Virus record (IMG/VR): IMGVR_UViG_3300048561_000014
Span: 1 to 40,480 of that record
Source: a virus
Taxonomy: Duplodnaviria; Caudoviricetes
Direction: 5' to 3' (one strand)
DNA: 40,480 nt
The stretch's first letter is position 1; each line of letters starts with the position of its first letter. Positions 7,338 through 23,414 of this stretch are shown piece after piece. A program made the position numbers and the translations under genes. The notes beneath the pieces are model-generated. The model made no database searches and was not told the origin of the DNA. It saw nothing but the letters and a program-made list of their open reading frames with translations.

Positions 7338-7948
7338 ATAGGTTTTATTTGCTCAACAATTTTGATAGATTGGAAAAGACATTCTGCAATAGCCTCCTGA
7401 CCTGCATCACTCGCAAGGAACTCCGCTTCGGTTCTGTTGTCAAAGAAAAGATTCTCAACCAACAGAGCAGGGCAATCTGTTTTGCGAAGTACATAAAAAT
7501 CCTCCTCCTTGTCTGCATCGCCATCTGCCTGATCGGCTCTAAAGGCGAAGTATGGAAATAGCTCTTTATACTTTTCGCAAAAGAAGTACGCGACCTTATC
7601 AGATTTGTTTTGCCCTTTACTGGTAAAAACTTCAAATCCTTTCCCCTGTCCGGCATTGGAGTGAATAGATAAATAAATTGCGTTCGGATTTTTTGCAAAA
7701 ATTTTGTCGGCTATTGCTACTCTTGCAGCCAGTGGTGTATCCTCCACATCATCGTATACCAATCCAAAACTAATATCCTCAGACTTCAATTTGGCTTGTA
7801 GTTTTGTAGCTACATGGCGATTGATAACACCCTCACGTATCTCAAACCCATCTCCAAATCTGTGCATCTTAGCAGGCGCAGTGGTATATACACCATTTTT
7901 TTCCCCGCCATGTCCAGCATCTAATATCCAATAATAGCTACTCATCAT
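7334..7948 (-). CDS. Endolysin, N-acetylmuramoyl-L-alanine amidase (Amidase_3)
   Basis: ILDAGHGG, E..IN, SIHSNA, GFEVF, VLRKTDCPALLVENLFFDN; start probably 7948 or 7945 rather than 8008. Confidence 0.93.
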   Translation of the reverse strand: MMSSYYWILDAGHGGEKNGVYTTAPAKMHRFGDGFEIREGVINRHVATKLQAKLKSEDISFGLVYDDVEDTPLAARVAIADKIFAKNPNAIYLSIHSNAGQGKGFEVFTSKGQNKSDKVAYFFCEKYKELFPYFAFRADQADGDADKEEDFYVLRKTDCPALLVENLFFDNRTEAEFLASDAGQEAIAECLFQSIKIVEQIKPI

Positions 7949-8204
7949 CTTCAGATTCTTTATTGTTTCGGTCGCGGTTACTCTTTGCAATATCCTTAAG
8001 TGTATCAATCTCCTGCTTAAGGAACAGTTTCACAGTTTTATTCAGCTCATCCAATTGTGCACTAATCATTGGTAGAGTAGTGTTGATGGTAGCCTCCATT
8101 GTATCCTGTTTCTTTTTCATATCAACTATCTCTCTGATCGTATAAAACAAACCAATAAAAAGAATAGTTAAAGCCCCGTATATCCACTGGTTAATTTCAC
8201 TCAT
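7938..8204 (-). CDS. TM plus coiled-coil protein, holin/antiholin candidate
   Basis: N-terminal TM, coiled coil, acidic tail; immediately upstream of endolysin. Confidence 0.55.
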   Translation of the reverse strand: MSEINQWIYGALTILFIGLFYTIREIVDMKKKQDTMEATINTTLPMISAQLDELNKTVKLFLKQEIDTLKDIAKSNRDRNNKESEDDE

Positions 8205-8225: not shown

Positions 8226-8579
8226 TTACCACTTGGTTATTACTACCTTGTCGCCTGTATTGCTGAACCTCAAATAAATTTTATAACCAGTTCTTGCAGT
8301 CGCTCTTACAACAATACCATTCGCATCAGTTGTTGCGGACAAAGAAGGGCTTGAAGTTATTGTACTGGTAGATGCGTTGACCTTTACAGTACCAGCGTTA
8401 CCAGAAGGAAATTTAATCAACACCTCAGTCTCACCAGCAGTAGAGCATTGGAGAATATGGGTGTTGGTGTTGTCAGGCGCTGTAATCTCCAATGGGTTAT
8501 AAGTCGCGAACGTGTAAGTGGTTTGAGCAAAAGCGTTTGCTGATACCAGTAAGAGAATTGCAATAAGTAAGTTTTTCAT
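8226..8579 (-). CDS. Small beta-rich protein with Sec signal peptide
   Basis: MKNLLIAILLLVSANAFA|Q; Thr/Ser/Gly-rich beta-type mature part. Confidence 0.75.
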   Translation of the reverse strand: MKNLLIAILLLVSANAFAQTTYTFATYNPLEITAPDNTNTHILQCSTAGETEVLIKFPSGNAGTVKVNASTSTITSSPSLSATTDANGIVVRATARTGYKIYLRFSNTGDKVVITKW

Positions 8580-8598
8580 AGTTGTTTTTTGTTTGTTT

Positions 8599-11553
8599 TT
8601 ATTTAGTTAAAAAGATAATTGCCACTACGCACTCAGAAGTATTGGAAGTGGTCTGAGTCATCACCCAGTCAACATTACCACTACCATCAGCTGTTCCCAC
8701 AACCTTACGTTCTACCGTTCCAGTTGTGTAGCCTACAGCACCAGCTCCGTTTACGTTAATATTTCCTGCACCTGTTCCGAAGGTATTTTTAATTAGGTAA
8801 ATCATTTCAAAACCCTGACTTGCTGAAAGCCCTGCAAAGCGGAGTGTACCTGAGTTATCTGGTGTGTGATAAACCTCCATACCTCTTACAATAGCATTTG
8901 CATTGCTTATGTAAGTTCCTGCGGTTGCATTAACAGCGTTCTGCATAGCGTGGAATGCGTTTGTAATAGCAAAACTTATTCCTGTTGCTGCATTGTTAAT
9001 ATCATCCAGGTTAGCAACCAATGTTCTTACACTAACATTGCCAGCCAAGTCCACATCGTTCCAACTTGATAAACCAGTATTGTTTGCGAAGTTGGTAATG
9101 TTGATGTTGACTCTCTTACTGTAGGTAATGTTATTCGTTACGCTTGTGGCTGTAAAACTTGCCAGCGCATTGGTAGCACCGTCCTGTAAGTTTGATCCAC
9201 TGCCTGAGTAAGCAATCGTTGTCAGGTAATCAATAGCCTCAAAATTCTCACTCATGGTGAAGTAATGCCCTGTTGTCTGGCCGCTATTGATTGTTACACC
9301 TGTAACCGTTGGAGCGGTGCCAACTATTCCGGCAATAGTAAAGCCTGAGAAAGTTGTGGCTGTTATTACCTCACTCGAGTTAAAATAGATTCTTCCTGGT
9401 TGTGCATTGGTAATCTCCCAGCCGCTCAGCGTTGGCGCTACCGCATCGGCTGTAGTTGTGAAATCTACTTTGGTTACTGCTGCCTGAGCAACATCTTCAT
9501 TCGTTACAAAAACCCCATAAAGATCGTATGCTGTTGATGGTGATAACCCCGTTATAGTTCCGGTTAATGCCGTGCCAGGATCAAGTATTGAACCTGATAC
9601 TATACCACTTGCTGCTCGTACTTGCGCAACAGTTGGAGCAGTTGCATTATTAGCCACCACCGTCCAATACAATAACCCTTCTTTGTTTGCATTAAAAGTA
9701 ATGGTGCCGCCTTGCTCTGTGAGTGATCCAACTGCAAGAGCACTACTAAACGTAGCCGCTGCCGCATCGTTAAATGTTGGTGTGATAGTTTTTCTGTCAT
9801 ACCCTGAGTAAGCACCGTGAGCGTAACCAGAAGCATTAAGGGGTAGCCCTGTATAGTCTATAAGATCAACACCTGAAACAACGGTTGTAATATCTGTTGC
9901 GCCTGTATATGCAGGACTTGATGTACTTGTTATTTCATAATCAGCCGCAGTGGTTCCGCTTCCATTAACAAATAAAATATCGGAGTAACTTGAGTAGCTT
10001 CTTACAAGATTGTTTACTGTTGGGGTGGTTGGGAATGTTCCTGCACCTGTAAAATCAAGCTCAGAGTAATCGCCACTCGTTCCGGTCTTTACGATAATGT
10101 TATTAGCCCAAACTAAGTTAGGTATTCTATACCCACCCGAACCAAATGCAATCGTGTTGCCTAACTTGTTACAAACAATCGTGTTGTTAAAGAAGTGAAA
10201 CGGATAGGTGTTTGTGCTTGTCCCATTGGTCCGAAAATAATTAAACACAGGTTCCGCTGCTCCTCCTGGTTCCGTTCCTTGAATCAGAATGTTACCATAG
10301 AAATAATTTGGTGAACTTGCCGGGGTTGTTTCAGATGCAAAAACGTTGTAAGGAGTTAATCCGGTTTTTCCATTCAAACCCATTTTTCCATTGATAGCAA
10401 AGTTTGAGAATACCCTGCAATTTGCATTACCTTCATTCCAACTAAATGCATTTTCGTGCGAGGCAGATTGCTGTAATCCCCAGGTGTCAATAAAGTTATG
10501 GTGAACACGCACATCTATACAACTGCTCCACTGAATTGCATCATTACCTGAGTCTGTAATTTCATTCCATGCGATAACTACATATCTTGATTTAGGAGGT
10601 ATGTAAGTAGACTGTGGTGTGTCGTTTGTGTAATTCAGGTAAACACCCTCTGCACCGCTTCCATTAATTCTGCAATCATAAATCGCAAGGTTGTTTGAAA
10701 TCCAATTTGTCGCGTTATATGTAACATTAACAGGAGGAATCCAGCTTATACCCGCTCGGTCTGTTGTGGCTCCAGTACGATCCATATCCAAACCCATCAG
10801 GTGTAGATCAGTAATTACTTTGGAGTTCTCACAACGAACGCCAAAGAGTGAGCCGGTAGGCATTACAAGATTATACCCTCTCGTGCCATCATCATTGTAA
10901 CCATCAAATATTACATACCGTGAACCTGTCAATACTAACCCATCACTTGCACTTATCCCAGTTTGAGTAATATCAGTATTGCCAGTTTCTTTTTGAATGA
11001 TGACCGGATTGCCAGACGTACCCCACAGATTAAGAAGGGCAACGTAACCCGTTCCACTTCCTTTTATATAAATTTTATAGTTAGGATTAGATGCCTCTGC
11101 AAAATCTGTGTAATGATTGCCACTTGCCAGATTGATAACCAGGTTAGCTTCACCCTCTGTAAACTTTGGAGTGTTAACATAAAATGCATCCTCCCACTCA
11201 ATCGGGTATTGATCGGTAGCAGTCTTTACCCAACAATACAAATCGTAAAATCCGCGAGTTGTTATAGCTGGAATGCTTTCGCTCAGCCCAGAGGTTCCCA
11301 TTCCTACAAGAAGGCCAGTCTTGTCTCTCACCTGCCATACAACACTTGTTACCGTTGGTGCTCCTGAGATGTTTGCGACAAGTGAAATCGCTGCGTTGGT
11401 TCTCTGAATGTGTTTGAATGTAAAATCTACATCAGGTATAGCAGTACTTGCAGAAGACCCGCTGGATGCCAGCGCAAAAAATATCTGCTTCTTGCTTATC
11501 TGCCCGAAGGCTAAAGCAGGTAAAAGGAGTAAGTATATGAGTAGTTTTTTCAT
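8599..11553 (-). CDS. Signal-peptide-bearing beta-helix (pectate-lyase-like fold) tailspike/adhesin with Ig/FnIII-like domains
   Basis: MKKLLIYLLLLPALAFG|Q; Asn-ladder repeats (IAWNEITDSGNDAIQ, VHHNFI, FFNNTI, WANNII); FnIII-like ITGLSPSTAYDLY. Confidence 0.75.
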   Translation of the reverse strand: MKKLLIYLLLLPALAFGQISKKQIFFALASSGSSASTAIPDVDFTFKHIQRTNAAISLVANISGAPTVTSVVWQVRDKTGLLVGMGTSGLSESIPAITTRGFYDLYCWVKTATDQYPIEWEDAFYVNTPKFTEGEANLVINLASGNHYTDFAEASNPNYKIYIKGSGTGYVALLNLWGTSGNPVIIQKETGNTDITQTGISASDGLVLTGSRYVIFDGYNDDGTRGYNLVMPTGSLFGVRCENSKVITDLHLMGLDMDRTGATTDRAGISWIPPVNVTYNATNWISNNLAIYDCRINGSGAEGVYLNYTNDTPQSTYIPPKSRYVVIAWNEITDSGNDAIQWSSCIDVRVHHNFIDTWGLQQSASHENAFSWNEGNANCRVFSNFAINGKMGLNGKTGLTPYNVFASETTPASSPNYFYGNILIQGTEPGGAAEPVFNYFRTNGTSTNTYPFHFFNNTIVCNKLGNTIAFGSGGYRIPNLVWANNIIVKTGTSGDYSELDFTGAGTFPTTPTVNNLVRSYSSYSDILFVNGSGTTAADYEITSTSSPAYTGATDITTVVSGVDLIDYTGLPLNASGYAHGAYSGYDRKTITPTFNDAAAATFSSALAVGSLTEQGGTITFNANKEGLLYWTVVANNATAPTVAQVRAASGIVSGSILDPGTALTGTITGLSPSTAYDLYGVFVTNEDVAQAAVTKVDFTTTADAVAPTLSGWEITNAQPGRIYFNSSEVITATTFSGFTIAGIVGTAPTVTGVTINSGQTTGHYFTMSENFEAIDYLTTIAYSGSGSNLQDGATNALASFTATSVTNNITYSKRVNINITNFANNTGLSSWNDVDLAGNVSVRTLVANLDDINNAATGISFAITNAFHAMQNAVNATAGTYISNANAIVRGMEVYHTPDNSGTLRFAGLSASQGFEMIYLIKNTFGTGAGNINVNGAGAVGYTTGTVERKVVGTADGSGNVDWVMTQTTSNTSECVVAIIFLTK

Positions 11554-11969
11554 ATCAGTGTAAACTCATTATTAGCTTTACGAATGTCAATTATCTCTTT
11601 GCATACACCTTCAATCAAATCCCAGAACGGATCGGCATTGGCTACGTTTGGAAATGAATTGATAGCCTTGTCTTGCAAGTACACTTCCATTGATACAGCG
11701 CCCGGTGTTCCTGGCGATACATATAACTTTGTAGTAGGGTTAATCAAACGCCCAACTGTAACATAATCATCTCGGTATGATTCAATGGAACGTTTTGCAA
11801 TGATTGATGAGTTGGCTGGTATAGCCTCAGCATCATTTTGCTCATGGAAGGAGATAACCCCTATTAATTTAGTAGGTTGCCCATCTACCACATCAATATT
11901 TCTATGCTCGTACTTTAACCTCTTGCCTGTACTTGCATCTACTCCAATGTTGAATTTTATATTTGCCAT
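11550..11969 (-). CDS. Hypothetical protein, possible fibre chaperone/adaptor
   Basis: 139 aa with no signal peptide, directly after the fibre gene. Confidence 0.6.
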   Translation of the reverse strand: MANIKFNIGVDASTGKRLKYEHRNIDVVDGQPTKLIGVISFHEQNDAEAIPANSSIIAKRSIESYRDDYVTVGRLINPTTKLYVSPGTPGAVSMEVYLQDKAINSFPNVANADPFWDLIEGVCKEIIDIRKANNEFTLI

Positions 11970-11971
11970 AG

Positions 11972-14173
11972 TTAGTTTGATTTAATTATTCTGGTTACTA
12001 AAGAGATTTCAGAATTGGCTACACCAGTACCAGTGAATGCAAGCGCAATGCTGCCACTACTATCGCTGGTAGATAGTGCCCATGAGCCAGTCATGTTATC
12101 ATTTGTTACAAGTTGGTTGTCACCTGCCTTTGCCAGCGTGCCGCTTGCCTTTGTCCATGTAGTGTAAAATATTCCACCCGCACCTGTATTGGCCCCTGAG
12201 CCTTTCGCAGTCCATAGAACTTCTATGGTTACGCTCTGGCCGTCTGATATGTCAGACGATGAATAAATATTTTCGCTATAAACTGTTGCAGAGGTAGTCC
12301 CTGTAGGCTGCCGCTCCTGATACTTACCATTCGTTTGAGTTACCTCGTATTCTTTATCTGCTTTAAATGTGAATAGTTCATTGTTGCTGCCATCAGCTAA
12401 CCTAAGTATTTTATCAGTAGAACTACCTCCACGTAAATCGTGAAAGGTATTTGATGTAATTGTGGTTCCCCCGATAAGTGTTTTACCACTTGTTGCATGT
12501 AAGAAATAGTTTACCCCGACTACACTGGTAACAGTAGGATCATAATATAAAGCGTTTACGTCTCCATCAGCCGCTGTATAAGTAGGTGTAAGTTTCAACA
12601 TACTCACTACTCCATTAGCCCCGCCTGTCTGGTTAATTGTTCCACTTCCTAAGTAAGCATTGAAAACAGCCGTACCGCTTGTAGGGGCAAAGCCTGTTTC
12701 GTTAGCTATTATATTAAGCGTTCCACTGGTAGCGGAATAGTTTCCGTTACCATTGTAAAATCTATAGTAGCCACCAGTAGGAACTGTTGTACTTGCATTA
12801 GTTCTAAACTCTAAACCAGCGTTTGTATTTGCTCTTAAACTTCCAAGTCCTCCATTGAAAAGTATTATCCTGCTTGATGAAATAGTTAAATTTCCTGAGC
12901 TTAGAGTAAGATCACCAGTAGTGGTAAGACCTGCACTTGTTACTGATAACCTTGTCGTTTTACCTCCACCATTTATTTCACTGGCAAGCTCCCACGTTCC
13001 GGTAGGGTTTGCTGCGCCTTGTAATGGTAGCACATCGGCTCTGAAAATAACACTCTGACTTGCTGCCGTTGCATTTGTTTTCCACCCCTGCCCTTCCCAA
13101 ACTATAGAAGGTGAAATTTGTTGAGCACCTGCCGCTGCTGCTGTTGTATTTCTAAGATGTATCCCTGCACCATCAGTGCGTGTTGTGCCAAGTGAAGCAA
13201 AAGAATGTTTAATCGTGTTAGATGAAGTACCAACAATGTCAATGGCTCCGGTTAAAGTTCCACCATTAGCTAAACTCCATCTTGCATCTAATGCATTTTG
13301 TAAATCTGTCTGACTTGAAAGTGTACCCGTTATTGAACCCCAAGTTCCACCTCCACCCGAAGGCGCTGCCCATGAAGGTAAACCACCTGAAAGAGTTAGC
13401 ACATGCGTATTTGTTCCAACCGGTAATCGTGTAAGGTATCCACTTGAGTTACGGTAGTAAATATCTCCGGTAGCATTAGTAGCACCAAGATTTAGTATAG
13501 CACCAGTAGCGTCAAATTCTAATTTATGGCTTGTGGTATTAGTTATTCTTATTTGCGTAGGATCAAACTCTAAAGCATAGTTACCATTTCTCAAATAACC
13601 ACTTGTGGCCAAATAAAGACTTGAAGTAAATCCAGCTTGAGTACCTGTTAAATCAACTGTGGTTGCTCGTCCCTTTAAAGCTGTAAGCTCATTTCCTGTA
13701 GTCCCTAACTCTAAATCATACGCTCCGCCTATTACCTTTGCACCTGTAAGATTCTGAGTGCCTGATAAACTTATCTTTGTACCAAGTTGCGTCTGTACAG
13801 CACTTGTTACACCTTTAATGTAACTCAATTCAGTTAATGATGGATAAGTTGCAGTTGCTAAACTTCCTAAAGTACTTGTGCCTGACCAATAGGTAAGTTC
13901 ATTGGCTACACCAGTGCCAACACTTGTTAGATATGTAGGTGTAAAGAACTCCAACGCAGTAGCGCCCGCATTGACTTTCATTAATTGCCCTGCTGTACCA
14001 ATAGTTGAAGCCCAACCGCGAAGCAGAGTAACAGTTGACTTCTTATTGGTAGTCTGTACGATTGGAACATATTCACTTCCAGTCAAACTGGTTGCACTCG
14101 TCATGTCACTAATCTTCTGGCTCTGACCGAAAAGAGTTAGTGGTAATAAAAGAATTAATAATACTTTTTTCAT
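11972..14173 (-). CDS. Tail-fibre-like protein with Sec signal peptide
   Basis: MKKVLLILLLPLTLFG|QSQKISDMTSATSLTGSEYVPIVQ; fibre-type motifs GTAGQLMKVNAGATALEF, GDIYYRNSSGYLTRLPVGTNTHVL, WGSITGTLSSQTDLQNAL. Confidence 0.8.
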   Translation of the reverse strand: MKKVLLILLLPLTLFGQSQKISDMTSATSLTGSEYVPIVQTTNKKSTVTLLRGWASTIGTAGQLMKVNAGATALEFFTPTYLTSVGTGVANELTYWSGTSTLGSLATATYPSLTELSYIKGVTSAVQTQLGTKISLSGTQNLTGAKVIGGAYDLELGTTGNELTALKGRATTVDLTGTQAGFTSSLYLATSGYLRNGNYALEFDPTQIRITNTTSHKLEFDATGAILNLGATNATGDIYYRNSSGYLTRLPVGTNTHVLTLSGGLPSWAAPSGGGGTWGSITGTLSSQTDLQNALDARWSLANGGTLTGAIDIVGTSSNTIKHSFASLGTTRTDGAGIHLRNTTAAAAGAQQISPSIVWEGQGWKTNATAASQSVIFRADVLPLQGAANPTGTWELASEINGGGKTTRLSVTSAGLTTTGDLTLSSGNLTISSSRIILFNGGLGSLRANTNAGLEFRTNASTTVPTGGYYRFYNGNGNYSATSGTLNIIANETGFAPTSGTAVFNAYLGSGTINQTGGANGVVSMLKLTPTYTAADGDVNALYYDPTVTSVVGVNYFLHATSGKTLIGGTTITSNTFHDLRGGSSTDKILRLADGSNNELFTFKADKEYEVTQTNGKYQERQPTGTTSATVYSENIYSSSDISDGQSVTIEVLWTAKGSGANTGAGGIFYTTWTKASGTLAKAGDNQLVTNDNMTGSWALSTSDSSGSIALAFTGTGVANSEISLVTRIIKSN

Positions 14174-14559
14174 TTGTGTGGAGTTGGTTCAGTTCTTCCT
14201 GCTGTGTTATCTGCCTCGGTTGTTTTCTGATCAATGATTTTATTAACTCGTGTATTCACAGCACCAAAAAATCTACTTGCTATATCATTGCTAACATAGC
14301 CAATAAATGAAAATGATACTCTCAAATAATTTTCAGCCTCTGGTTTAAACTTTACTACCTCTTTAACCAAGAACAAAGCAAGGCAGATGGTGGTAATGGA
14401 GATCAAATGACTTACATAATCCTCTTTAAAATAATCCATCGGCTTGAAGGCAACCTGTGCGAGCTTCGCTTTATCCTGAATTGATTTAATTTTAAATAGT
14501 GCATGCAAGAATGCCCCCAGCATTGCGATTGCAAAAAATTCAAAGTAAGTTAAATCCAT
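14170..14559 (-). CDS. Small multi-TM membrane protein, holin candidate
   Basis: Two to three hydrophobic helices and a charged C-terminal tail. Confidence 0.55.
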   Translation of the reverse strand: MDLTYFEFFAIAMLGAFLHALFKIKSIQDKAKLAQVAFKPMDYFKEDYVSHLISITTICLALFLVKEVVKFKPEAENYLRVSFSFIGYVSNDIASRFFGAVNTRVNKIIDQKTTEADNTAGRTEPTPHK

Positions 14560-14569
14560 AGTTTTAATT

Positions 14570-15820
14570 TTAAATTGTTGTTACTGTTCCATAAACGTTT
14601 GTGTTATATCCATCTTCCTTCTGAGTTAGCCAGCAAGTCGCAGGTTGTAATGGTTGTGAATTACTAACATCACGCGCTTCATAATTCTCTTCCTTTACCC
14701 AATACTCACCATCAATATAGATAGTATTGTGGTTGAGCACACGCTTCATAAGTTTGTGGATATGTGGTGGAGCGTATTCAATCTCAAGTAACTTTTGATC
14801 CTTAAGAGTACTGGAAAGTTTTTCAACTGTACCATCGCTCGTCTGATCGCTTTCGTTTTCTTCTGGTGTACGCTCTTTTGTGAATCTACCATCTAACCGT
14901 ATAGCAAAAATATCCTCATTGCTATAATCAATACCAGCATAGTTAGCCTTATCTCCATACTGAATGAGCACAGTATCGTCATGATCAGCTATATGTAGTA
15001 AATCAGACTTAGCAGCATAGTCGTTTAATAACATTATATCCCCTACTGGTGGAATGATTGTTATAGTGCTGCCAAAAATAAGAGATTCAAAAATAATTCT
15101 GAAGCGGTCACTGTTAGCAGACAGAGCTGGAAATGTAATGCTCAAGGAAGTAGCCATGCTTGCAGTTAACTCCACAACAACTTCTGATACGGCTGTGCCT
15201 CCTGCGTCTATAAATTGAAAGCGTAAATAATTACTACCAACTCCTCCATGAACATAAACTATTGGCACAGTGATAGGGTCAGGAACATCTCCAGATAATA
15301 AAACAGCTGGCTGATGAGCACCATAATCAGCAACAGTTGGAGCACTTTTGGCTATGTTAGTAGAACCATAAACATTAAACGCAGTATAGCTGCCATCAGT
15401 AGTCCAACCAGTATCAGGAGCTAAGTAGTAAACATTTCCAACCGAGCTTGTGATAAATAATTTTATAAATTCATTATCTGGGTAATCTGCAAAGTCAATT
15501 TCAACAGTATAGTAATCTGTATCCTCCACAAAATCTATGTAGTCAATCACTGCATCATCCTCGTCTTTTAACACAAGCTGGTAAGTCACACCAGTATCAT
15601 CAAACAACTGTATCTTAGTAACATCATCCGAGTTAAACTTTTGCTTAAAGCAAACCTGCTGCATACCAGCCACAACTTTCTCATTGAAAGACTCAACTCC
15701 ATTCAACCAAAACTTAACTGGATTTCCTTGTGGTAATGTCATGTCAAAACAATTTTTATAAATTACTATTCTCTCATCTGTGCAACCAAGCAACAGAAAT
15801 AAAATAACTAGCCTTCTCAT
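14570..15820 (-). CDS. Minor tail protein with lipoprotein-like leader (alternative start 15742)
   Basis: Position in tail module; ATGA-coupled start MRRLVILFLLLGC; second Met at residue 27. Confidence 0.65.
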   Translation of the reverse strand: MRRLVILFLLLGCTDERIVIYKNCFDMTLPQGNPVKFWLNGVESFNEKVVAGMQQVCFKQKFNSDDVTKIQLFDDTGVTYQLVLKDEDDAVIDYIDFVEDTDYYTVEIDFADYPDNEFIKLFITSSVGNVYYLAPDTGWTTDGSYTAFNVYGSTNIAKSAPTVADYGAHQPAVLLSGDVPDPITVPIVYVHGGVGSNYLRFQFIDAGGTAVSEVVVELTASMATSLSITFPALSANSDRFRIIFESLIFGSTITIIPPVGDIMLLNDYAAKSDLLHIADHDDTVLIQYGDKANYAGIDYSNEDIFAIRLDGRFTKERTPEENESDQTSDGTVEKLSSTLKDQKLLEIEYAPPHIHKLMKRVLNHNTIYIDGEYWVKEENYEARDVSNSQPLQPATCWLTQKEDGYNTNVYGTVTTI

Positions 15821-18045
15821 TCAATCAATATATTACTACTTCCATCCTCCATTAAAATAGCATTGCCATCTTCTTGAAGTATAACGTCAGCACCCGGAGT
15901 TACTGTTGATGCAGATGCTTGCAATAAAAGTAAATCAGCATAACCACCAAATATCTTATAATCAAAATCAAGAATGTGCATTGGGATGTAAGTGGTAGCA
16001 TCCTGACTTATTGCAATCGCATTTTCCTTATCTGCTAGTATCGCGTCATAAGTTACTTTACTCATAGGTACCTTACACTTAAATACTTTTGGGATGAATA
16101 AGTAGTCCGTAGTACTCACTGCAATATCTGCATCCTCCACTAACACAGGTTCTGGATCGTCAGTTGCCTCGCAGTCAGTAGTTTCAAATTGCGAATACAT
16201 TGTACGATTACCTTCACCACCAGAATAATAAAAGTATTCACTGGTGGTATGTTGTAAGCAGCCTTGAATAAAACTCTGCCATCTTTTAAATACTCGTGCG
16301 CATACATGTCGAATATTATAACGAGTGGAAGAATTTAGCAGCCCAGTAATTGCATTGAAGTCGGTACCAATTTCTGGAGTGTAATCACTACCATCTACTT
16401 TAACGGCAACCATTATAATATCCTCATCAATCTTACCATCTTTGTTTAGCTCAACTCGGTTGCGTCTGTTCTGCTCTATACCAAGTGAAGCAAGAAAGAA
16501 GGTGGAAATTATTTTTAGGTCGTTACCAATGGTTCTAAACTTTGTGCGCCAGCTTGCCAATGTTTGTGGATCATCTACACCACCAGCAGCTTCAATAAAA
16601 CGCTTTGAATATCCTACCTCAATAGTCTTGTAATGTTTTTCAAGATCATATCTGCGAGTTAATCCGCTGACGTTGGATAAAAATACAGAAGGTGTTTGAC
16701 CATAGAAGAAGGATTTATTTTCAATCTGAATCTTTTTAACTCCAGCAACCTCAGTATAACCAAGACCGGTGTTAGCAACAGGTTCAAAGCCTTTCCATAG
16801 CTCGTCAAAGCTGGTGGTAAATGGTTTATCTGTGAATGAATAACCTCTACCATGTATACCTCGGAACACTGCGTTGAGTCGCTTGCAAGTAGTAAACATG
16901 GTTGATTTAATAACACTATTCTGCCCTATAATTTTACTCAACACACTTTCAAATGCGTCTTTAATTAAGTAGGCATCAGTAGTGCTATCTGGAAATATTG
17001 TGTAAGCAGTAATTTCCAATTGAGTATAAACAGGATCATAGGGAGCGCCTAAATCAGAATCGTAGTCAGGAAAAAATGACATGGTACCAACCGCTGAACT
17101 TATAACTATTTTACCATAGATATAAAATTCATCGCCAACTAATAAATCAACTGTTAGACTTAATGTCCTTGCACCATCATCAGTGATTAATGAATTAGTG
17201 CCTGACTGAGTACTCCCAATCTGTGTTTCAGTTATAACCCCATCACTCTTTATTGCTCTATACCATTTAACGTCAAAGTTTCTTGATGAGCTAAGTATAA
17301 TGGTGTATCGTATAGATGCTTCAAAATTATAACTACCTGCAAAGTCTGCCTTAATTATATACTTACCATCAAGTGTAGGCTTAACAACGCTAAGAATAGT
17401 TCCATGTTCAACTCGTGTGCTTATCTCATCGACAACTAAAATAGCATTAGAGAAAATTAAGTACTGAGTTGTAGTACCTGATACATCAGCAGATATTATA
17501 GCAGTTTCATCAATAGTTCTGGTAATGTTGTCAGCCCAATCAATCTGTCTTTCAAACTTATTGCGTATAGCTTGACTTGGTAATGGTAAAGTAATCTTAT
17601 TAACAGCAGTGCGAGCGTTACCCTCCAAATCAACAGCAGCCTCCAGATCAACCTTAACTGTCCTGCGATTCATAAACGTTGCCCAAAAATCATTACGGAT
17701 AATTGGTGCGGCATACTTATAGAATCTGTTAGCCATACTCAACTCTTCCTTCTGGCTCACATCAATTAAGCCATCAAATATAGTTGACCATGTTGTGTTG
17801 TATCTGATTTCAATCAGGCAACGTATCTTAACTTCTGGTCCATCAGCATCTTCACAATCCATTATAAATGTACGGGCACTACCGTACCACACAAACCCAC
17901 CTTTAAAATATTCAACGAGCGAGTGGAAAGCTGGATCACGTGTTAACGATAACACAATGTCTCTCCAACCCAACGGCTGATTCACTACAGTGCCTGATGG
18001 GCTTACTGTATCATGGAAGAAAGTGAAGCGTGTTGACGGGGTCAT
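15817..18045 (-). CDS. Tail tip / baseplate hub-like protein
   Basis: 742 aa directly after tape measure; N-terminal QPLGWRD; C-terminal ILQEDGNAILMEDG repeat. Confidence 0.7.
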   Translation of the reverse strand: MTPSTRFTFFHDTVSPSGTVVNQPLGWRDIVLSLTRDPAFHSLVEYFKGGFVWYGSARTFIMDCEDADGPEVKIRCLIEIRYNTTWSTIFDGLIDVSQKEELSMANRFYKYAAPIIRNDFWATFMNRRTVKVDLEAAVDLEGNARTAVNKITLPLPSQAIRNKFERQIDWADNITRTIDETAIISADVSGTTTQYLIFSNAILVVDEISTRVEHGTILSVVKPTLDGKYIIKADFAGSYNFEASIRYTIILSSSRNFDVKWYRAIKSDGVITETQIGSTQSGTNSLITDDGARTLSLTVDLLVGDEFYIYGKIVISSAVGTMSFFPDYDSDLGAPYDPVYTQLEITAYTIFPDSTTDAYLIKDAFESVLSKIIGQNSVIKSTMFTTCKRLNAVFRGIHGRGYSFTDKPFTTSFDELWKGFEPVANTGLGYTEVAGVKKIQIENKSFFYGQTPSVFLSNVSGLTRRYDLEKHYKTIEVGYSKRFIEAAGGVDDPQTLASWRTKFRTIGNDLKIISTFFLASLGIEQNRRNRVELNKDGKIDEDIIMVAVKVDGSDYTPEIGTDFNAITGLLNSSTRYNIRHVCARVFKRWQSFIQGCLQHTTSEYFYYSGGEGNRTMYSQFETTDCEATDDPEPVLVEDADIAVSTTDYLFIPKVFKCKVPMSKVTYDAILADKENAIAISQDATTYIPMHILDFDYKIFGGYADLLLLQASASTVTPGADVILQEDGNAILMEDGSSNILIE

Positions 18046-19904
18046 GCAGATAAAGACTTTAAACGTATTAACTTACGACTACCATCCAATCTCTTTTGAA
18101 CTGCAAACACTTGCGAGCCTTGCTCATACATACGACCAGTACTTTCCTGAACTGCATTTACTATTGAGCTACCAATCTCCTTTACTGAGTTGTTTACTAA
18201 TTGCAAGTGATTCAACATTAAGAAATCATTGCCTTTACCAATATCAATACCACTACCAGCAAGCATAGCCATTGATTTTTCATGTGGTATAATTTCAGTG
18301 CCACGCTTAAGATGCGTGAGAGTTGCTTCACTTGGTGATAACATTAAACCTTGTCCGGGCACATTCATTAACTCAGCTCCTCGCTCACCGACAAACGCAA
18401 GACCTTCTGGTGAACTTGAAGTACCTTTAAAAAATCCTTGCACATTATTTATTTTTGCAACCGAGCTTAAACCATTGGCAATAACAGCAGCAACGGCAAA
18501 GAACTTAGCAACGAATGGAAGTTTAGGATCAGCTAGTGTTTGAGTAGCCGCTAAGTATGTGTTCATTATAGCATTGGCATTAGCAAAAACTTTTTGTGCA
18601 ATAGTGCCTTTCTTTAAAGTGTTAGCTAACGAGCCAAGACTATTGGAAACCATTTGAGCATAACCAAGTTGCTCTTTTCTTTTTTCGTTATCAACTGCAA
18701 CTGCATCAGTGTTGAACTTAGTAGCTTCAGCAGTGGTAATACTTGCTGCTGCCTCATTTAATTTACCAGTTATAACAGCCTCTTGAGTAGGCAGCACATC
18801 CTTAATAACAGTCTGTTGATACTCCATATCAGCAGTGCGTGCCAGTACTTCCATTCTATGTCTACCATCAACAGCTGCCTTCAACTCATTCTCAAGATCA
18901 ATTTTTTGCTTGGCAAACTTTTTAGTAGCATCATAATAATTCTGCTCTACAGTAGCCAGCGCACCAATAGCTTCTGCCTGCGCTTTCTTATTTTCAATGG
19001 TAGGATCATCACTTGCATTTTTGTTAGCTATCTCCAATTTGGTTTTAGCAAACTCCATTTCCTTATCCATCAAACCTTGCTCAAGTGCAATAGCCTGATT
19101 AACTAAATCAAGACGCGCTTGACCTTCAACCTCCATTGCCTGATTGCGTAGCTTAGCAGCATCGCGAGCTACTTCAGCACGTTGGACAATCAACTCACGC
19201 TCTTGCGTATTAAATTTTTCTTCAAGGTCAGCAATGCGGTTTCCTTCTTTAACTATGTCATCAACCCAACCTTTAACAGCAGCAGATGCATTTGGAAAAA
19301 CTTTCTCCGCTATACCACCGATCCACTCGAATGCTTTTCCTAATGTATTGAAGATCGCTTCACCAGCTAACTCAATATAGTCAGTAATCAACTCCAATAC
19401 TTCCGCACCAATAGCCATTGCACGATTAAAACGGTTTTGTCCTTCTTCGCTGCCTTTGAAGTAGGCACTCAGTGCTCCAATACCAGCAGCTAAGGCAGCA
19501 ATAGCAAGCCCGATTGGCGTCATTAAAAATGCTGCGGCTGCTTTAGCCATAGCCATAAATCCTTTTACTGCACCAACTTGTGCAGGTGCTAACTCATTAA
19601 GTGAATCAGTAGTTTGCTTAAATGCTTTGTTAGAATCTTGTTGCGTCTTCGTTTGCTTCTTTACAGTATCATCCAGTTTCTTTTCGTTACGATCAAGTAC
19701 CAGTAAATCATCAGCGAGCTTCTTAGTGTCTTTACTTGTTGCTTTAGTAACTTCACCAGACTCCTTGAAAGTCTTTTCCATGTTCTTACCTGACTGCCGT
19801 AAATTGTCAAGAGTACCAAGCACATCTTCCAAAGTACCTTGTAGCTCCTGAAGTGGTGCACTCAGGTTATCACCAAAAATATCTTCCCTGTTAATTTCGG
19901 CCAT
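18042..19904 (-). CDS. Tail tape measure protein
   Basis: Ala-rich helical protein; TPIGLAIAALAAGIGAL segment; C-terminal FKGT....GLAFVGERGAEL...GTEIIPH. Confidence 0.85.
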   Translation of the reverse strand: MAEINREDIFGDNLSAPLQELQGTLEDVLGTLDNLRQSGKNMEKTFKESGEVTKATSKDTKKLADDLLVLDRNEKKLDDTVKKQTKTQQDSNKAFKQTTDSLNELAPAQVGAVKGFMAMAKAAAAFLMTPIGLAIAALAAGIGALSAYFKGSEEGQNRFNRAMAIGAEVLELITDYIELAGEAIFNTLGKAFEWIGGIAEKVFPNASAAVKGWVDDIVKEGNRIADLEEKFNTQERELIVQRAEVARDAAKLRNQAMEVEGQARLDLVNQAIALEQGLMDKEMEFAKTKLEIANKNASDDPTIENKKAQAEAIGALATVEQNYYDATKKFAKQKIDLENELKAAVDGRHRMEVLARTADMEYQQTVIKDVLPTQEAVITGKLNEAAASITTAEATKFNTDAVAVDNEKRKEQLGYAQMVSNSLGSLANTLKKGTIAQKVFANANAIMNTYLAATQTLADPKLPFVAKFFAVAAVIANGLSSVAKINNVQGFFKGTSSSPEGLAFVGERGAELMNVPGQGLMLSPSEATLTHLKRGTEIIPHEKSMAMLAGSGIDIGKGNDFLMLNHLQLVNNSVKEIGSSIVNAVQESTGRMYEQGSQVFAVQKRLDGSRKLIRLKSLSA

Positions 19905-20502
19905 TAGTAGGTTTATTTTTATTTGCTACTATCTTACTATATTCATTGAAGCGAGCAAGTGTTACATTATCATCAACCGCAAACCCAAGTCCGGCACTTA
20001 CCTCTGCCAGTAACTCGTCTGCACTTTTACGTTTAACACTTTTCGCCATTGCTATAATCTCCTCCATTTGTGAGTTAGCCAAACCAATTTTTGTTGATAA
20101 GTTGCTGACTCTCCTTAATCCTGCGTTGATTGACTCAAGATATTTTTTATCATTATCAGTACTAATCTTGTAACCTCTCAAGCGCAAATCATTTATAATA
20201 ACTTCATCAATCTTTATTGCTATCATTAACAAACTCGCTTTCTCCACTAAGTACTTTGCGGCCAGTGCCGATTTTTTCAAAAACGTTTTGGTATAGAAGT
20301 TGAATTGGCTGTTGTCTGTTGCTTCTGCATTATCTTTAATTATCTGCAACCAAGCCTCGTTATAATCCAACCCACCAAGCAGCTCAGTCTTACCAGTGTT
20401 AACAATTTCAATGAACAGGCGAAACGGAATATTATGATAAGTCCAATTCGTCTTTAATTTTTTTAATGAAAGCAGGCAGTATGTGATCTTTAGCCAACTC
20501 AT
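19891..20502 (-). CDS. Tail assembly chaperone-like protein (start uncertain)
   Basis: Directly upstream of tape measure; usable starts lie inside the upstream gene. Confidence 0.55.
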   Translation of the reverse strand: MSWLKITYCLLSLKKLKTNWTYHNIPFRLFIEIVNTGKTELLGGLDYNEAWLQIIKDNAEATDNSQFNFYTKTFLKKSALAAKYLVEKASLLMIAIKIDEVIINDLRLRGYKISTDNDKKYLESINAGLRRVSNLSTKIGLANSQMEEIIAMAKSVKRKSADELLAEVSAGLGFAVDDNVTLARFNEYSKIVANKNKPTNGRN

Positions 20503-20848
20503 TAATCGCAACTTTATCAAGGCCGAATATTGTTTCACCATAACGCTCTACTAACATGTCTCGTTTCTCATCACTCGAATCAATTACTATTGGAAAGCTA
20601 CCAGTACGCTCAACAAAAAATCCCTGATAGAAAAATCCTTGGTCATACAATCTTATTTTTCCAGGTTTGTTTGCATATGGTGGCATTGACTTACCATCAC
20701 TTTTCTTTCCTTCCCATAGCATTGACTTGTTAGCCTCTGTTATCTGATCCTCCAATTCATAAACAACTTCAAGCTGAAGTACTTCAAGGTTTTTTCCATA
20801 CATCACCTGTAGGGATAAAAGTTTTTCATGTAGTTGTTTCAGCGTCAT
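20432..20848 (-). CDS. Neck / tail-completion protein (HK97 gp10-like)
   Basis: LWEGKKSDG..M..Y......IRLYDQGFFYQGF pattern; RYGETIFGL. Confidence 0.6.
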   Translation of the reverse strand: MTLKQLHEKLLSLQVMYGKNLEVLQLEVVYELEDQITEANKSMLWEGKKSDGKSMPPYANKPGKIRLYDQGFFYQGFFVERTGSFPIVIDSSDEKRDMLVERYGETIFGLDKVAINELAKDHILPAFIKKIKDELDLS

Positions 20849-20853
20849 AAAAG

Positions 20854-20879
20854 TAAGGGCAGCTAAATCACTGCCCTTA
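20854..20879 (-). terminator. Hairpin / probable intrinsic terminator after major tail gene
   Basis: TAAGGGCAG-N8-CTGCCCTTA 9-bp stem with a short U tract on the - strand. Confidence 0.6.
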
Positions 20880-20883
20880 TTAG

Positions 20884-21759
20884 TTAAGGAACATTAACAG
20901 TAAGCGTATTGCCTGCTTCGTATACATCTACCGATAAGCTGGCAGAAGGCACGAGCGTTACAGTACCATCCACGAAAGTAGTTCCAGCCGTTAGTGTATA
21001 ACGTCCGGGCACTGTGGTAGACTCTGCAAGTGTTTTAGTTTGCGCTGCCCCTGCATCTGTTAAGAGTAGGAAGTCAGCCGCAATCAATCCAGTCAGAGGA
21101 GTATCCTCATCGCAACTGATGAAGGCGTCAATCACAATGGTTGAAGATGAAACCGAACCAACCAGCTCAAGCGTAACGTCAACGATGCTTAGTAACTCAT
21201 TAACAAAATCCTGACCATCTACAATCAAACCTTTCTTGCTCAACTCAGTCTCGTCTTTTAAAACGAAGTACACTGGTGAGTAAGTGCCTGCCGCTCCATC
21301 ACTGATTTTAATTTTCTCAGTGTTGAGCAATCCAAGTTTGAACCCACGGATATTTCCGTTCGCCATCTCTGTGCCAATGATCTGATTTTTCTTATCAATC
21401 AAAAACACGCGGTCACCTTTACCAGAATGTGTGGTCATGTTTTTATGCATGCACAATCCGGCATTGATCATAGCACGGAAACGATACTTGCCCTGATCTG
21501 CTAAGATGTCGCTGTTGATACCTTCGTCATAAACTGATTCAGTACTAACATCTTCAATCTTATCAAACTCAGGCCACAGGTAAATTCTTTCAGCCAACAC
21601 ATCTTGCAATGCAGTCTGCCAGTTAGTACTTACCAACGCTGCCGCAGGAGTTAATGAAAACCCCGGAGGCGTAATGATCATAGCTTTGAGAGGCCCAGGA
21701 AACTTCGTGCATCTGGTCACTCCTAAATTTTCTTTATCTACACAATTTTCTGCTGCCAT
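20884..21759 (-). CDS. Major tail tube protein with Ig-like C-terminal extension
   Basis: Position after terminator-like gene; N-terminal Cys pair; beta-rich C-terminal domain (ESTTVPGRYTLT); followed by hairpin. Confidence 0.7.
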   Translation of the reverse strand: MAAENCVDKENLGVTRCTKFPGPLKAMIITPPGFSLTPAAALVSTNWQTALQDVLAERIYLWPEFDKIEDVSTESVYDEGINSDILADQGKYRFRAMINAGLCMHKNMTTHSGKGDRVFLIDKKNQIIGTEMANGNIRGFKLGLLNTEKIKISDGAAGTYSPVYFVLKDETELSKKGLIVDGQDFVNELLSIVDVTLELVGSVSSSTIVIDAFISCDEDTPLTGLIAADFLLLTDAGAAQTKTLAESTTVPGRYTLTAGTTFVDGTVTLVPSASLSVDVYEAGNTLTVNVP

Positions 21760-21764
21760 TTATT

Positions 21765-22259
21765 TTAGCATTTAGTTGTTGAATTAATTCTCAAATTTGT
21801 AATCTCAATACCATCTAACGGATCATTAAAAATATACTTCGTGTTGCCTTCTTGCTCAGTGATACCAAGGAAGTGACGGTCTGTCTTTACATGTGGTGGA
21901 TACTTGTGAGAGCCTTCCCACATAAACAGACCGGAGTTTTTCAATTGTTTAAAGAACTCTATGTACAATGGATAGAGCACAGGACGAAAAATTTTATCCA
22001 TTCGCAGCTCTTCCGTATACTGTCCTTTGGTCAGCGTAGCGATAACGATGTTCAAATTGAATTGCTGAATACCTTCCACCACATCTTCAGACGTATCAAG
22101 TTTTAGTGCGATGAGTGGGTACTTTTCAGCTCGTGTATTCAAGCGAGCAGCAATAGACTTACGATGACCGTATATGTATTTGACAGAAGTTACTCCATCA
22201 ATAGCACTCACGTCCATCGCTTCTACCACTGTACCAATATCATCGACTACATACCTCAT
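21765..22259 (-). CDS. Tail terminator / head-tail joining protein
   Basis: Synteny; KYPLIAL...LNIVIATLT...IFRPVLYPLY pattern. Confidence 0.6.
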   Translation of the reverse strand: MRYVVDDIGTVVEAMDVSAIDGVTSVKYIYGHRKSIAARLNTRAEKYPLIALKLDTSEDVVEGIQQFNLNIVIATLTKGQYTEELRMDKIFRPVLYPLYIEFFKQLKNSGLFMWEGSHKYPPHVKTDRHFLGITEQEGNTKYIFNDPLDGIEITNLRINSTTKC

Positions 22260-22936
22260 ATACCAAAAGAATTTATAAAACCTTGTGGCGTGTACTCATG
22301 CTCCACTGCATAGTCATCTTCATTTACATAAAGGAAACCATAGAGCGTGTTGTCAATACAATAGTGACCACCAGCTAACTCACTAAACTTATTGAAGGCG
22401 TTGGAGATTCTGAAAGCAGGACTAATGTCCACACCATTCTCGTTCGAAGCAACTACCATTCCGGCACCTGTGTGATTGTCATACGTATCACGCACCCATG
22501 CTTGGTAAATATATGGACGAAGTAATTCAGCCATACCAACCCACTCATAAGTTTTTTCCGCATAAACATAATCAGCACCGAAAAATAAATTTGCCCAAAC
22601 GTTATCAGTTACCTCTTCCCAGAAAGCAGAACCTTCAGCAGGTAGATTACTTGAACTACTTGTATGCACTTGTAACGAGCGCCATAACTTTCTATTGTAC
22701 GTGCGCTCATCATTAACTACATAATTGGTTGCAGTAACCCATGCTGTAAGCAATGCAATCTGATCTACCATCTCATCATAGAATGCTTTACCAAGCAACT
22801 TCTTGAGAATGTATTCTTCCTTCTCCAGCATGTAGACACTGAACTCAGACGCTATGGCTGTAGCTTCATCCGTTGTCTCCTCTATATTAGGAAGTTTGTA
22901 AGGCAGTCTCGCAAAGTCGCTTGATAAAACAAACAT
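22256..22936 (-). CDS. Head-tail adaptor with inserted CBM5/12-like module
   Basis: Synteny; LKKLLGKAFYDE; insert AWVTATNYVVNDERTYNRKLWRSLQVHTS...P...SAFWEEV. Confidence 0.65.
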   Translation of the reverse strand: MFVLSSDFARLPYKLPNIEETTDEATAIASEFSVYMLEKEEYILKKLLGKAFYDEMVDQIALLTAWVTATNYVVNDERTYNRKLWRSLQVHTSSSSNLPAEGSAFWEEVTDNVWANLFFGADYVYAEKTYEWVGMAELLRPYIYQAWVRDTYDNHTGAGMVVASNENGVDISPAFRISNAFNKFSELAGGHYCIDNTLYGFLYVNEDDYAVEHEYTPQGFINSFGI

Positions 22937-22958
22937 AATGTAATCCGTTAGATTGTAC

Positions 22959-23414
22959 TTACTTACTCCTATGAATCTTTGCCGCTATGGTTGTCACCAT
23001 CGTGCCCGTACCAACCAATTGTACTCGGTAGTATGGAAAGGGTGAGCCATTAAGTCGCCAATGATAACCAGCAGTAGCATCCGCGATTGTATAAGTCGCA
23101 AGAGCTGTTGCAGTTTCAGCAGTGGTTAACGCTTTATAAGTAGTGCCATCAACACTTCCGAGAAGTGATAACGTTCCACCAGTTGTACCACTCACATCAG
23201 TTGCGAGGACTTGGATAACCGTACTGGAGTACGCCTCGCCATTCTGCTTCAACGGAACAATATTCCCAACCGTTGCCGTACCAGTGTTAGTTGCCGTGTC
23301 AGTAGCTAACGTGGTATAGGTCGAGTTGTACATTGCAAGCGTTTGAGCCTGCACACCAGCAATCGCAAAGGCTACCAGTGCGATTGATAAAAGAATGTTA
23401 TAAAACTTTTTCAT
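22959..23414 (-). CDS. Capsid-adjacent beta-sandwich protein with Sec signal peptide (decoration-protein position)
   Basis: MKKFYNILLSIALVAFAIAGVQA|Q from ATG 23414; mature part with GTLSLLGSVDGTTY and PYYRVQLVGTGT. Confidence 0.75.
   Translation of the reverse strand: MKKFYNILLSIALVAFAIAGVQAQTLAMYNSTYTTLATDTATNTGTATVGNIVPLKQNGEAYSSTVIQVLATDVSGTTGGTLSLLGSVDGTTYKALTTAETATALATYTIADATAGYHWRLNGSPFPYYRVQLVGTGTMVTTIAAKIHRSK

What the first reader, a model, noticed from the sequence alone, without database searches (positions are those of the whole stretch)
8226..23414. Four virion-module proteins carry Sec signal peptides cleaved before Gln: candidate export-dependent virion decoration system
Seen: four late-operon genes begin with clean n/h/c-region leaders, each followed by Gln: 23414 MKKFYNILLSIALVAFAIAGVQA|Q, 14173 MKKVLLILLLPLTLFG|Q, 11553 MKKLLIYLLLLPALAFG|Q and 8579 MKNLLIAILLLVSANAFA|Q. 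Portal, capsid, adaptor, tube, tape measure and hub have no leader. Established: tailed phages assemble in the cytoplasm and their fibres and decoration proteins normally lack signal peptides. Bacteroidota SPase I substrates frequently expose an N-terminal Gln that glutaminyl cyclase converts to pyroglutamate (the Q-rule). Inference: this phage may send its outward-facing parts through Sec, let them fold and be modified in the periplasm, and add them to particles at lysis. Alternatively they are exported non-virion factors such as receptor decoys, superinfection blockers or exit depolymerases. I know of no described system like this, but cannot check the literature here.
Basis: partly seen in the sequence, partly recalled or inferred. 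Interest (0 to 1): 0.92.

Follow-up and report, generated by a model that had tools for sequence, protein, structure and literature searches.

The report
Phage cement and fibres get exported
An uncultured tailed phage, likely of Bacteroidota bacteria, carries secretion-type leaders on its predicted capsid cement, tail fibre, tailspike and a small fourth late protein, so these parts are likely exported to the periplasm and would join the particles only at lysis, although tailed phages are thought to be built wholly in the cytoplasm.

Summary
Confirmed and extended. The four leaders (S1 23414, S2 14173, S3 11553, S4 8579) are real: shuffles pass my rule 0.1-0.4% of the time, and 0 of 379 cytoplasmic orthologues do. 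S1 is a predicted jelly-roll. It follows the capsid gene in 77 of 80 relatives and heads a family of 1,218 clusters that keeps leader+Gln, even in 27 of 150 members fused behind a cytoplasmic protein. A cultured homologue with the leader, phage Pan5 gp7, is annotated 'cement'. S2 and S3 (S4 weakly) have leaderless homologues in virion modules. The leader-bearing forms avoid the host's periplasmic O-glycosylation motif (S2 19 vs 95 expected, leaderless 72 vs 111), which independently points to real export and against glycosylation as the purpose. Cellulophaga phi10:1 gp091-094, annotated as MS-detected virion proteins, carry such leaders. Best reading (0.6): Sec export, periplasmic storage, late attachment at lysis. 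Attachment is not shown. This scan found the same pattern before in other phage genomes; my literature searches found no description of the route.

The parts
22959..23414 (-). S1, 151 aa: Sec/SPI-type leader (23346-23414), then a 128-aa single jelly-roll; candidate capsid cement or decoration protein, between capsid and adaptor genes
   Evidence: Model pLDDT 89; VIA Z 8.9 XepA, 7.3 BPP-1 cement, 6.9 KHP40 cement, CBMs 6.7-7.5; after capsid gene in 77 of 80 loci; homologous to Pan5 gp7 'cement', E 2e-13
11972..14173 (-). S2, 733 aa: leader (14126-14173), then a mosaic Gly/Thr-rich tail-fibre-like protein whose first 40 mature residues are an anchor-like domain also found without a leader
   Evidence: 59 of 120 listed homologues have a leader, 58 with Gln; leaderless forms of the same N-terminal domain
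8599..11553 (-). S3, 984 aa: leader (11503-11553), short disordered N-peptide, Ig/PKD-like domain, beta-helix, Fn3-like and further beta domains; tailspike or depolymerase-like receptor-binding protein
   Evidence: Model pLDDT 74.5; Foldseek top hits GH28 exopolygalacturonase, fibronectin III, tailspikes; 7 of 16 homologues (this one included) have leader+Gln
8226..8579 (-). S4, 117 aa: leader (8526-8579), small beta-rich protein; possible minor head or tail accessory (weakest case)
   Evidence: 3 close homologues, all with the leader, one fused behind a charged peptide; weak hits (E 2e-4 to 4e-3) to leaderless 90-94-aa head-region proteins; atlas neighbours are phage hypotheticals
14570..15820 (-). 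416-aa tail-tip-position protein with a lipoprotein-type leader and a second, internal ATG at 15742; likely a two-start gene
   Evidence: Lipobox leader in 11 orthologues (window included), a Cys-less hydrophobic leader in a 12th; all 12 have ATG or GTG where leaderless orthologues start
15817..18045 (-). 742-aa leaderless hub-like virion protein ending in a repeated 'EDG' hairpin motif; candidate docking site for the S2 anchor domain (inferred)
   Evidence: phrog_15220 virion structural protein, E 4e-52; motif upstream of 6 of 10 rows of the S2 anchor domain in fetched loci, some rows being the same contig
11550..11969 (-). 139-aa leaderless protein between S2 and S3; possible adaptor or chaperone (untested)
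   Evidence: No leader, no family
14170..14559 (-). 129-aa membrane protein directly upstream of S2, holin-like by hydropathy only
   Evidence: Hydrophobic segments; no family
23449..24696 (-). HK97-type major capsid protein, no leader
   Evidence: PF05065, E 6e-29
7334..8204 (-). Holin-like 88-aa protein and leaderless amidase endolysin; implies lesions that join cytoplasm and periplasm at lysis (inferred)
   Evidence: Amidase_3, E 2e-25; no leader; holin label from hydropathy and position only
27678..29009 (-). Terminase large subunit with an in-frame lipoprotein-type leader (ATG 28976) ahead of a GTG at 28883 that matches the start of orthologues
   Evidence: Same arrangement in L005 and L007; 2 of 38 orthologues pass the leader rule

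Best explanation
The four proteins carry cleavable secretion-type leaders and are likely outward-facing virion accessories (predicted capsid cement, fibre, tailspike and a small beta protein) that are likely exported by the host Sec system, cut before Gln, stored in the periplasm, and would be added to finished particles when lysis joins the compartments. Shown: leaders, synteny, operon coupling, homologue patterns and motif avoidance. Predicted: folds. Established for Bacteroidota: SPase I cleavage before Gln and pyroglutamate formation on the periplasmic face (PMC5837995), and O-glycosylation only of exported proteins (PMC8550257). Inferred: no type IX secretion signal was found, so the proteins stay in the periplasm; a leaderless endolysin needs large holin lesions, which would let the pools mix; cements and tailspikes can bind finished particles spontaneously (recalled: lambda gpD, T5 pb10, P22 tailspike). 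The purpose is unresolved; for S2-S4 it is probably not glycosylation.
For: Leader+Gln in 67 of 67 distinct S1 homologues from 80 viral loci, with leader identity 32% against 51% for the mature part. Among the best 150 family representatives: 113 leader+Gln, 27 fused with the h-region and Gln kept internally, 2 leader only, 8 none, mostly truncated. No conserved internal start in S1: ATG in 9 of 42, none of ATG/GTG/TTG in 11 of 42. Motif D[ST][AILVMT]: dereplicated S2 homologues 19 observed/95 expected with leader (25 proteins) against 72/111 without (34), p 2e-4; S3 D[ST] ratio 0.34 (7) against 0.75 (8), p 0.004; E[ST] and [ST]D controls show no difference. S1 follows the capsid gene in 77 of 80 loci and its fold matches known cements. 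Cultured Pan5 gp7 is an S1 homologue with leader+Gln, listed as 'Cement', identified by cryo-EM or AlphaFold2. A leaderless S3 sits among tail genes of a crAss-like phage. phi10:1 gp091-094 and phi18:3 gp087 have leader+Gln and are annotated as MS/MS virion proteins. Genes are packed at -4 to 35 nt with no separate promoter-like box in front of S1-S4, and no integrase family was hit.
Against: No particle, proteome or cleavage site was observed for this phage. The S1 fold does not separate cement from carbohydrate-binding modules or XepA (Z 6.7-8.9), and the Pan5 footnote does not say which method applied. The phi10:1 proteins are not detectably homologous to S1-S4, and MS of phage preparations can include co-purifying proteins; I could not read that paper. 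Lipoprotein-type leaders precede the terminase and a tail-tip protein, so in this lineage a leader can front a cytoplasmic function. S1 has ATG/GTG/TTG after the cut in 31 of 42, more than the roughly half expected, though at scattered places. Motif depletion also occurs in leaderless tube orthologues (15 vs 52), and related sequences are not independent. In 2 of 16 prophage-type loci S1 precedes the tube gene and in 1 it has no capsid neighbour. Cultured relatives Arctus_1 and mumin9-1 build the same module with no S1 and leaderless fibres.
Confidence: 0.6

Rival explanations
1. The proteins are exported but never join virions; they are released at lysis as soluble lectins, depolymerases or receptor decoys that clear capsule or keep progeny off debris.
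For: S3 looks like a secreted polysaccharide-degrading enzyme. The top S1 structural match is XepA, an exported PBSX lysis-cassette protein. S4 lies next to the lysis genes, and S1 sits with unrelated capsid types and sometimes before the tube gene.
Against: S1 keeps the post-capsid slot in 77 of 80 loci. S2 and S3 replace leaderless fibre and spike genes slot for slot and keep their anchor domains, and the window has no other fibre or spike candidate. Leader-bearing phi10:1 proteins are annotated as virion MS hits.
Confidence: 0.2
2. Each gene makes two forms: a cytoplasmic one from an internal start or from incomplete export supplies the virion, and the exported one is surplus or has a second role, as seems likely for the 416-aa protein and the terminase.
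For: Internal ATG/GTG is conserved in 12 of 12 leader-bearing 416-aa orthologues and in 3 terminases. 31 of 42 S1 genes have some ATG/GTG/TTG soon after the cut. Leaderless homologues of S2-S4 show that the domains can fold in the cytoplasm.
Against: Those S1 codons are not aligned, and 11 of 42 have none. The window's S3 has none in about 38 codons after the cut. The first internal Met of S2 lies inside the conserved anchor motif. 20 of 27 fused S1 forms have no Met at the h-region.
Confidence: 0.12
3. The hydrophobic leaders act as membrane tethers for assembly at the inner face of the membrane and are removed by a phage protease, without translocation.
For: 27 of 150 S1 representatives carry a cytoplasmic post-capsid domain in front of the h-region, which would tether it to the membrane. 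PMC10367356 suggests prohead-protease cleavage for capsid-protein leaders in Porphyromonas phages.
Against: A basic n-region with AxA-Gln is the SPase I signature, and that enzyme's active site is periplasmic (PMC5837995). Avoidance of a periplasm-only glycosylation motif in leader forms needs export.
Confidence: 0.08

Closest known systems
Pseudanabaena phage Pan5 gp7 'cement protein' (GenBank ON968456; PMC9837993)
   Same: Homologous to S1 (E 2e-13), directly after the capsid gene, same leader with Gln21; gp18 and gp19 in its fibre region also have leader+Gln.
   Different: The passages and supplement part I read do not mention the leader; capsid type differs; the deposited host is a cyanobacterium, while its virion genes match Chitinophagaceae prophages among my 19 loci and its starts are A-rich without an obvious Shine-Dalgarno site (true host inferred, not shown).
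Jelly-roll capsid cements: Bordetella phage BPP-1 Bbp16 (3j4u_H), Helicobacter phage KHP40 cement (7dou)
   Same: Single jelly-roll of similar size (Z 7.3, rmsd 3.2, 109 aligned; Z 6.9, rmsd 3.0, 99 aligned); post-capsid gene slot.
   Different: No sequence match to PDB chains; those cements are made in the cytoplasm without leaders (recalled).
Cellulophaga phage phi10:1 gp091-094 and phi18:3 gp087
   Same: Fibre-slot genes with leader+Gln, annotated as structural from MS/MS.
   Different: Not detectably homologous to S1-S4; no S1-like gene after the phi10:1 capsid gene.
Bacteroidota Q-rule SPase I substrates (PMC5837995) and Q-rule genes of Porphyromonas prophages (PMC10367356)
   Same: Same leader anatomy and Gln at +1.
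   Different: Those phage genes are of unknown function and were read as host-modifying; here the genes fill virion slots of an apparently virulent phage.
Inovirus coat proteins, spanins, SAR endolysins and moron envelope proteins (recalled)
   Same: Phage proteins that use the host Sec route.
   Different: Those are membrane-assembled coats, lysis proteins or host-envelope modifiers, not soluble accessories of a tailed particle.

Membership tests
Bacteroidota Sec/SPI Q-rule substrate | Basic n-region, hydrophobic core, small residues at -3/-1, Gln at +1 | tested here: met
   (own rule, not SignalP)
Bacteroidota Sec/SPI Q-rule substrate | Bacteroidota host | tested here: inconclusive
   13 of 19 genome loci with S1 are Bacteroidota records, 1 more is Roseivirgaceae, 5 lie in other or doubtful bins; the window's own host is unknown
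Bacteroidota Sec/SPI Q-rule substrate | Cleavage and pyroglutamate shown | not testable with these tools
   Needs N-terminomics
Jelly-roll capsid cement (Bbp16-like) | Single jelly-roll fold | tested here: met
Jelly-roll capsid cement (Bbp16-like) | Gene next to the major capsid gene | tested here: met
   77 of 80 viral loci
Jelly-roll capsid cement (Bbp16-like) | Sequence family match (PF21190 or other) | tested here: inconclusive
   No Pfam or PHROG hit; atlas cluster at 0.90 with 11% Bbp16 members is a lead only
Jelly-roll capsid cement (Bbp16-like) | Binds the outer capsid surface | not testable with these tools
   Pan5 annotation only
Beta-helix tailspike / depolymerase | Parallel beta-helix domain | tested here: met
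   S3 model and Foldseek
Beta-helix tailspike / depolymerase | Trimer attached to the tail; enzyme activity | not tested
   No complex model or assay
Type IX secretion substrate | C-terminal sorting domain | tested here: not met
   No Pfam or NCBIfam hit in S1-S4
Moron / lysogenic conversion gene | Own promoter, in a temperate phage | tested here: not met
   Coupled genes, no -7 box directly before S1-S4; no integrase family among 46 proteins; contig completeness not proven
Bacteroidota O-glycoprotein | D-S/T-[AILVMT] motif in an exported protein | tested here: inconclusive
   S1 has one site, kept near the N-terminus in 94 of 108 relatives; S2, S3 and S4 have none against 2.9, 4.1 and 0.4 expected

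The most novel reading that the evidence does not exclude
A broad class of Bacteroidota tailed phages splits virion assembly across the inner membrane: the core is built in the cytoplasm, while cement, fibres and spikes mature in the periplasm as pyroglutamate-capped proteins and snap on at lysis. The leader is an evolutionary switch that fibre genes gain and lose, with matching loss of host glycosylation sites, and in fused forms the cleaved leader leaves a capsid-linked domain tethered to the membrane.
Probability: 0.5. Interest if true: 0.92.

Novelty: categorically new. Interest (0 to 1): 0.82.

Why it matters
Tailed phages are taken to assemble wholly in the cytoplasm, and exported proteins in late operons are read as lysis or moron functions. 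If these parts reach the particle, there is a second assembly compartment and a last assembly step tied to lysis. That would change how Bacteroidota phage genes are annotated, how their receptor-binding proteins should be expressed or swapped, and possibly how they escape cytoplasmic defence sensors (speculative). The S1 family has 1,218 clusters, and a cultured member with purified particles (Pan5) already exists, so the claim can be tested at once.

Tried and rejected
The window's S1, hub and S3 gave no tblastn hit in cultured phages; S2 gave one weak hit; cultured S1 members came only through distant prophage queries. PDB sequence searches gave nothing useful for S1, S3, the 416-aa protein or Pan5 gp7. 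Foldseek on S1 against PDB gave only generic beta-sandwiches. Export for glycosylation was rejected for S2-S4. Export for disulfides was rejected: S1 and S2 have no Cys, and leaderless S3 forms have as many or more. All-or-none leaders per genome was rejected: MD05 has leader S1 with leaderless fibres, and L058 has leader S1 with a leaderless S4-like gene. A single origin of the fused S1 form is not supported, but the tree is poorly resolved: 20 changes on the tree, 3 forced. RNA-library contigs of three studies cover capsid-S1-adaptor, which does not show transcription. No terminal repeat was found. Literature searches without a description of the route; passages of PMC13314943, PMC12309495, PMC5723332 and PMC10172136 held nothing on exported virion parts. 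The library lacks most subscription papers, and the Cellulophaga proteomics paper was not held.
Full report
Setting. The window is the whole held assembly, one 40,480-base contig. It encodes terminase, portal, prohead protease, an HK97-type capsid, a tape measure protein and an amidase on the minus strand, with DNA polymerase A, primase and two glycosyltransferases. No integrase family was hit among 46 proteins. It is a siphophage-type genome found in bioreactor metagenomes. The host is likely Bacteroidota: starts are A-rich without an obvious Shine-Dalgarno site, capsid relatives are Flavobacterium phages, and 14 of 19 genome loci with an S1 relative are Bacteroidota records.

Observation. 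The four leaders are as described. With a simple leader+Gln rule (SignalP was not available), 4 of 21 window proteins pass, shuffles pass 0.12-0.44% of the time, and 0 of 379 distinct orthologues of ten cytoplasmic genes pass. The genes are packed into the late operon, S2 and S3 by stop-start overlap. The Q-rule averages 71% of SPase I substrates in Bacteroidetes (PMC5837995, passages).

S1. Eighty viral loci gave 90 homologues, 67 distinct, all with an h-region and small residue followed by Gln; leaders average 32% pairwise identity against 51% for the mature part, over 44 representatives less the fused ones. A profile search found 1,218 clusters. Of the best 150, 113 have leader+Gln, 2 a leader without Gln by my rule, 8 none (mostly truncated), and 27 are fusions in which a 55-100-residue charged protein precedes an intact h-region and Gln. 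That front domain is the small protein encoded separately after the capsid gene in nine other loci (E 2e-20 to 2e-6); 20 of 27 fusions have no Met at the h-region. The export signal therefore survives fusion. S1 follows the capsid gene in 77 of 80 loci; the other 3 follow a 356-360-aa gene. Of 16 genome loci counted, 6 follow the same capsid type, 7 follow 332-365-aa genes (two shown homologous to the Pan5 capsid), 2 precede the tube gene and 1 has no capsid neighbour. The mature model (pLDDT 89) is a single jelly-roll; matches include XepA (Z 8.9), BPP-1 cement (7.3), KHP40 cement (6.9) and carbohydrate-binding modules (6.7-7.5), which do not separate the roles. Two cultured phages carry S1 with leader+Gln right after the capsid gene: Pan5 gp7, annotated 'cement', and LS06-2018-MD05 gp76. 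[quoted passage not shown] Their deposited hosts are a cyanobacterium and a Rhodobacteraceae label; I infer co-cultured Bacteroidota hosts but did not show it.

S2-S4. Of 120 listed S2 homologues (552 found), 59 have a leader and 58 the Gln; the rest start like ordinary fibres, several with the same anchor domain that follows the cut in S2. That domain often lies downstream of a protein ending in a repeated EDG motif, here the hub (6 of 10 rows, some duplicated contigs); docking is untested. S3 models as Ig-like domain, beta-helix, Fn3-like and further beta domains, resembling polysaccharide hydrolases and tailspikes. Of 16 homologues, 7 have the leader, 8 I count as leaderless (P0287 first treated as truncated, then as leaderless because its length matches that class) and 1 is undetermined; on a 15-row tree the state changes at least 3 times. 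A leaderless S3 lies among tail genes of a crAss-like phage (label from gene sizes and motifs, my reading), and a near-identical relative of this phage has a different, also leader-bearing protein in the S3 slot. S4 has three leader-bearing homologues and weak leaderless relatives in head regions.

Independent sign of export. Bacteroidota glycosylate D-S/T-[AILVMT] only after export (PMC8550257, passages). The window's S2 and S3 have 0 sites against 2.9 and 4.1 expected. After dropping 4 ambiguous rows and dereplicating to 59, S2 leader forms have 19 of 95 expected and leaderless forms 72 of 111 (p 2e-4); S3 D[ST] ratios are 0.34 and 0.75 (p 0.004); E[ST] and [ST]D controls do not differ. Against: leaderless tube orthologues are also depleted (15 vs 52), and rows are related. 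S1 instead keeps one site near its N-terminus (94 of 108), though a reversed control motif is equally enriched, so this may be plain conservation. Earlier scan notes reported enrichment in other phages; that does not hold here for S2-S4.

A caution. The 416-aa tail-tip gene has a lipobox leader in 11 orthologues and a Cys-less one in a 12th, while 11 other starts examined have none; all 12 carry ATG or GTG where leaderless forms begin, with rare GTG used in the three Val cases. The terminase shows the same in three genomes. These look like two-start genes. S1-S4 differ: no aligned internal start, none at all in 11 of 42 S1 genes (2 of 44 skipped), ATG in 9 of 42 as background predicts, though any-start codons (31 of 42) exceed the roughly half expected.

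Mechanism. Sec export and SPase I cleavage before Gln (inferred from anatomy, supported by motif avoidance); pyroglutamate capping (established for the phylum); retention in the periplasm, as no type IX signal was found; mixing with finished particles when holin lesions open for the leaderless amidase (inferred); spontaneous binding (recalled for other cements and spikes). I give this 0.6, exported non-virion factors 0.2, dual forms 0.12, and membrane tethering 0.08.

Precedent and novelty. phi10:1 gp091-094 and phi18:3 gp087 have leader+Gln and GenBank notes of MS/MS detection in virions; I checked only gp087 of the three phi18:3 genes named in earlier notes, and none is detectably homologous to S1-S4. 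Arctus_1 and mumin9-1 have the same module with no S1 and no leaders, so export is optional for the virion type. PMC10367356 (passages) notes five Q-rule phage genes of unknown function; PMC5723332 (passages) counts signal peptides without assigning them. Searches found no description of exported virion parts in tailed phages; the library lacks most subscription papers. This scan noted the pattern before in other genomes but not this S1 sequence. New here are the cement family with a cultured member, leader-preserving fusions, the leader switch with motif loss, and the two-start lipoprotein leaders.

Noticed in passing
window 14570-15820 and 27678-29009: Lipoprotein-type leaders in frame ahead of conserved internal starts in a tail-tip protein (12 orthologues) and the terminase (3 genomes); purpose unexplained, perhaps a way to dump surplus coupled translation or to make a membrane-bound form.
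   Followed up: partly
L032 9773-10432, L068 6526-7200, L074 9836-10474, L079 9677-10327, L008 4972-5436: Small charged cytoplasmic proteins fused in front of an intact signal peptide of S1 or S4, giving a predicted membrane-spanning precursor.
   Followed up: yes
window 33576-36061: Two TET-associated glycosyltransferases (PF20691), a 79-aa gene and a ParB-like gene beside DNA polymerase A suggest DNA hypermodification.
   Followed up: no
L125 (Pan5) and L126 (LS06-2018-MD05): Both look like Bacteroidota phages (Q-rule leaders; Pan5 virion genes match Chitinophagaceae prophages) though deposited with cyanobacterial and Rhodobacteraceae labels. Pan5 gp18 has a leader and 14 glycosylation motifs, the opposite of S2 and S3 here.
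   Followed up: partly
window 15820-15936; L105, L107, L114, L116, L121, L124, L126: A repeated EDG hairpin motif ends the hub or a small protein upstream of fibre genes with the S2-type anchor domain; a possible general fibre-docking pair.
   Followed up: partly
L026, L030, L039, L059-L061, L066, L067, L069: Two tandem S1 paralogues after the capsid gene, both with leaders; 2-domain S1 proteins of 255-300 aa also occur among the representatives.
   Followed up: no
L121 5324-6766, L105 13907-15460: Spike-slot proteins with lipoprotein-like leaders followed by the same KKxxF N-peptide that begins mature S3.
   Followed up: no
window 25581-25820: 79-aa charged protein with a tandem internal repeat of 11 residues whose copy number varies among close relatives.
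   Followed up: no
window 5865-6919: [quoted passage not shown]
   Followed up: partly
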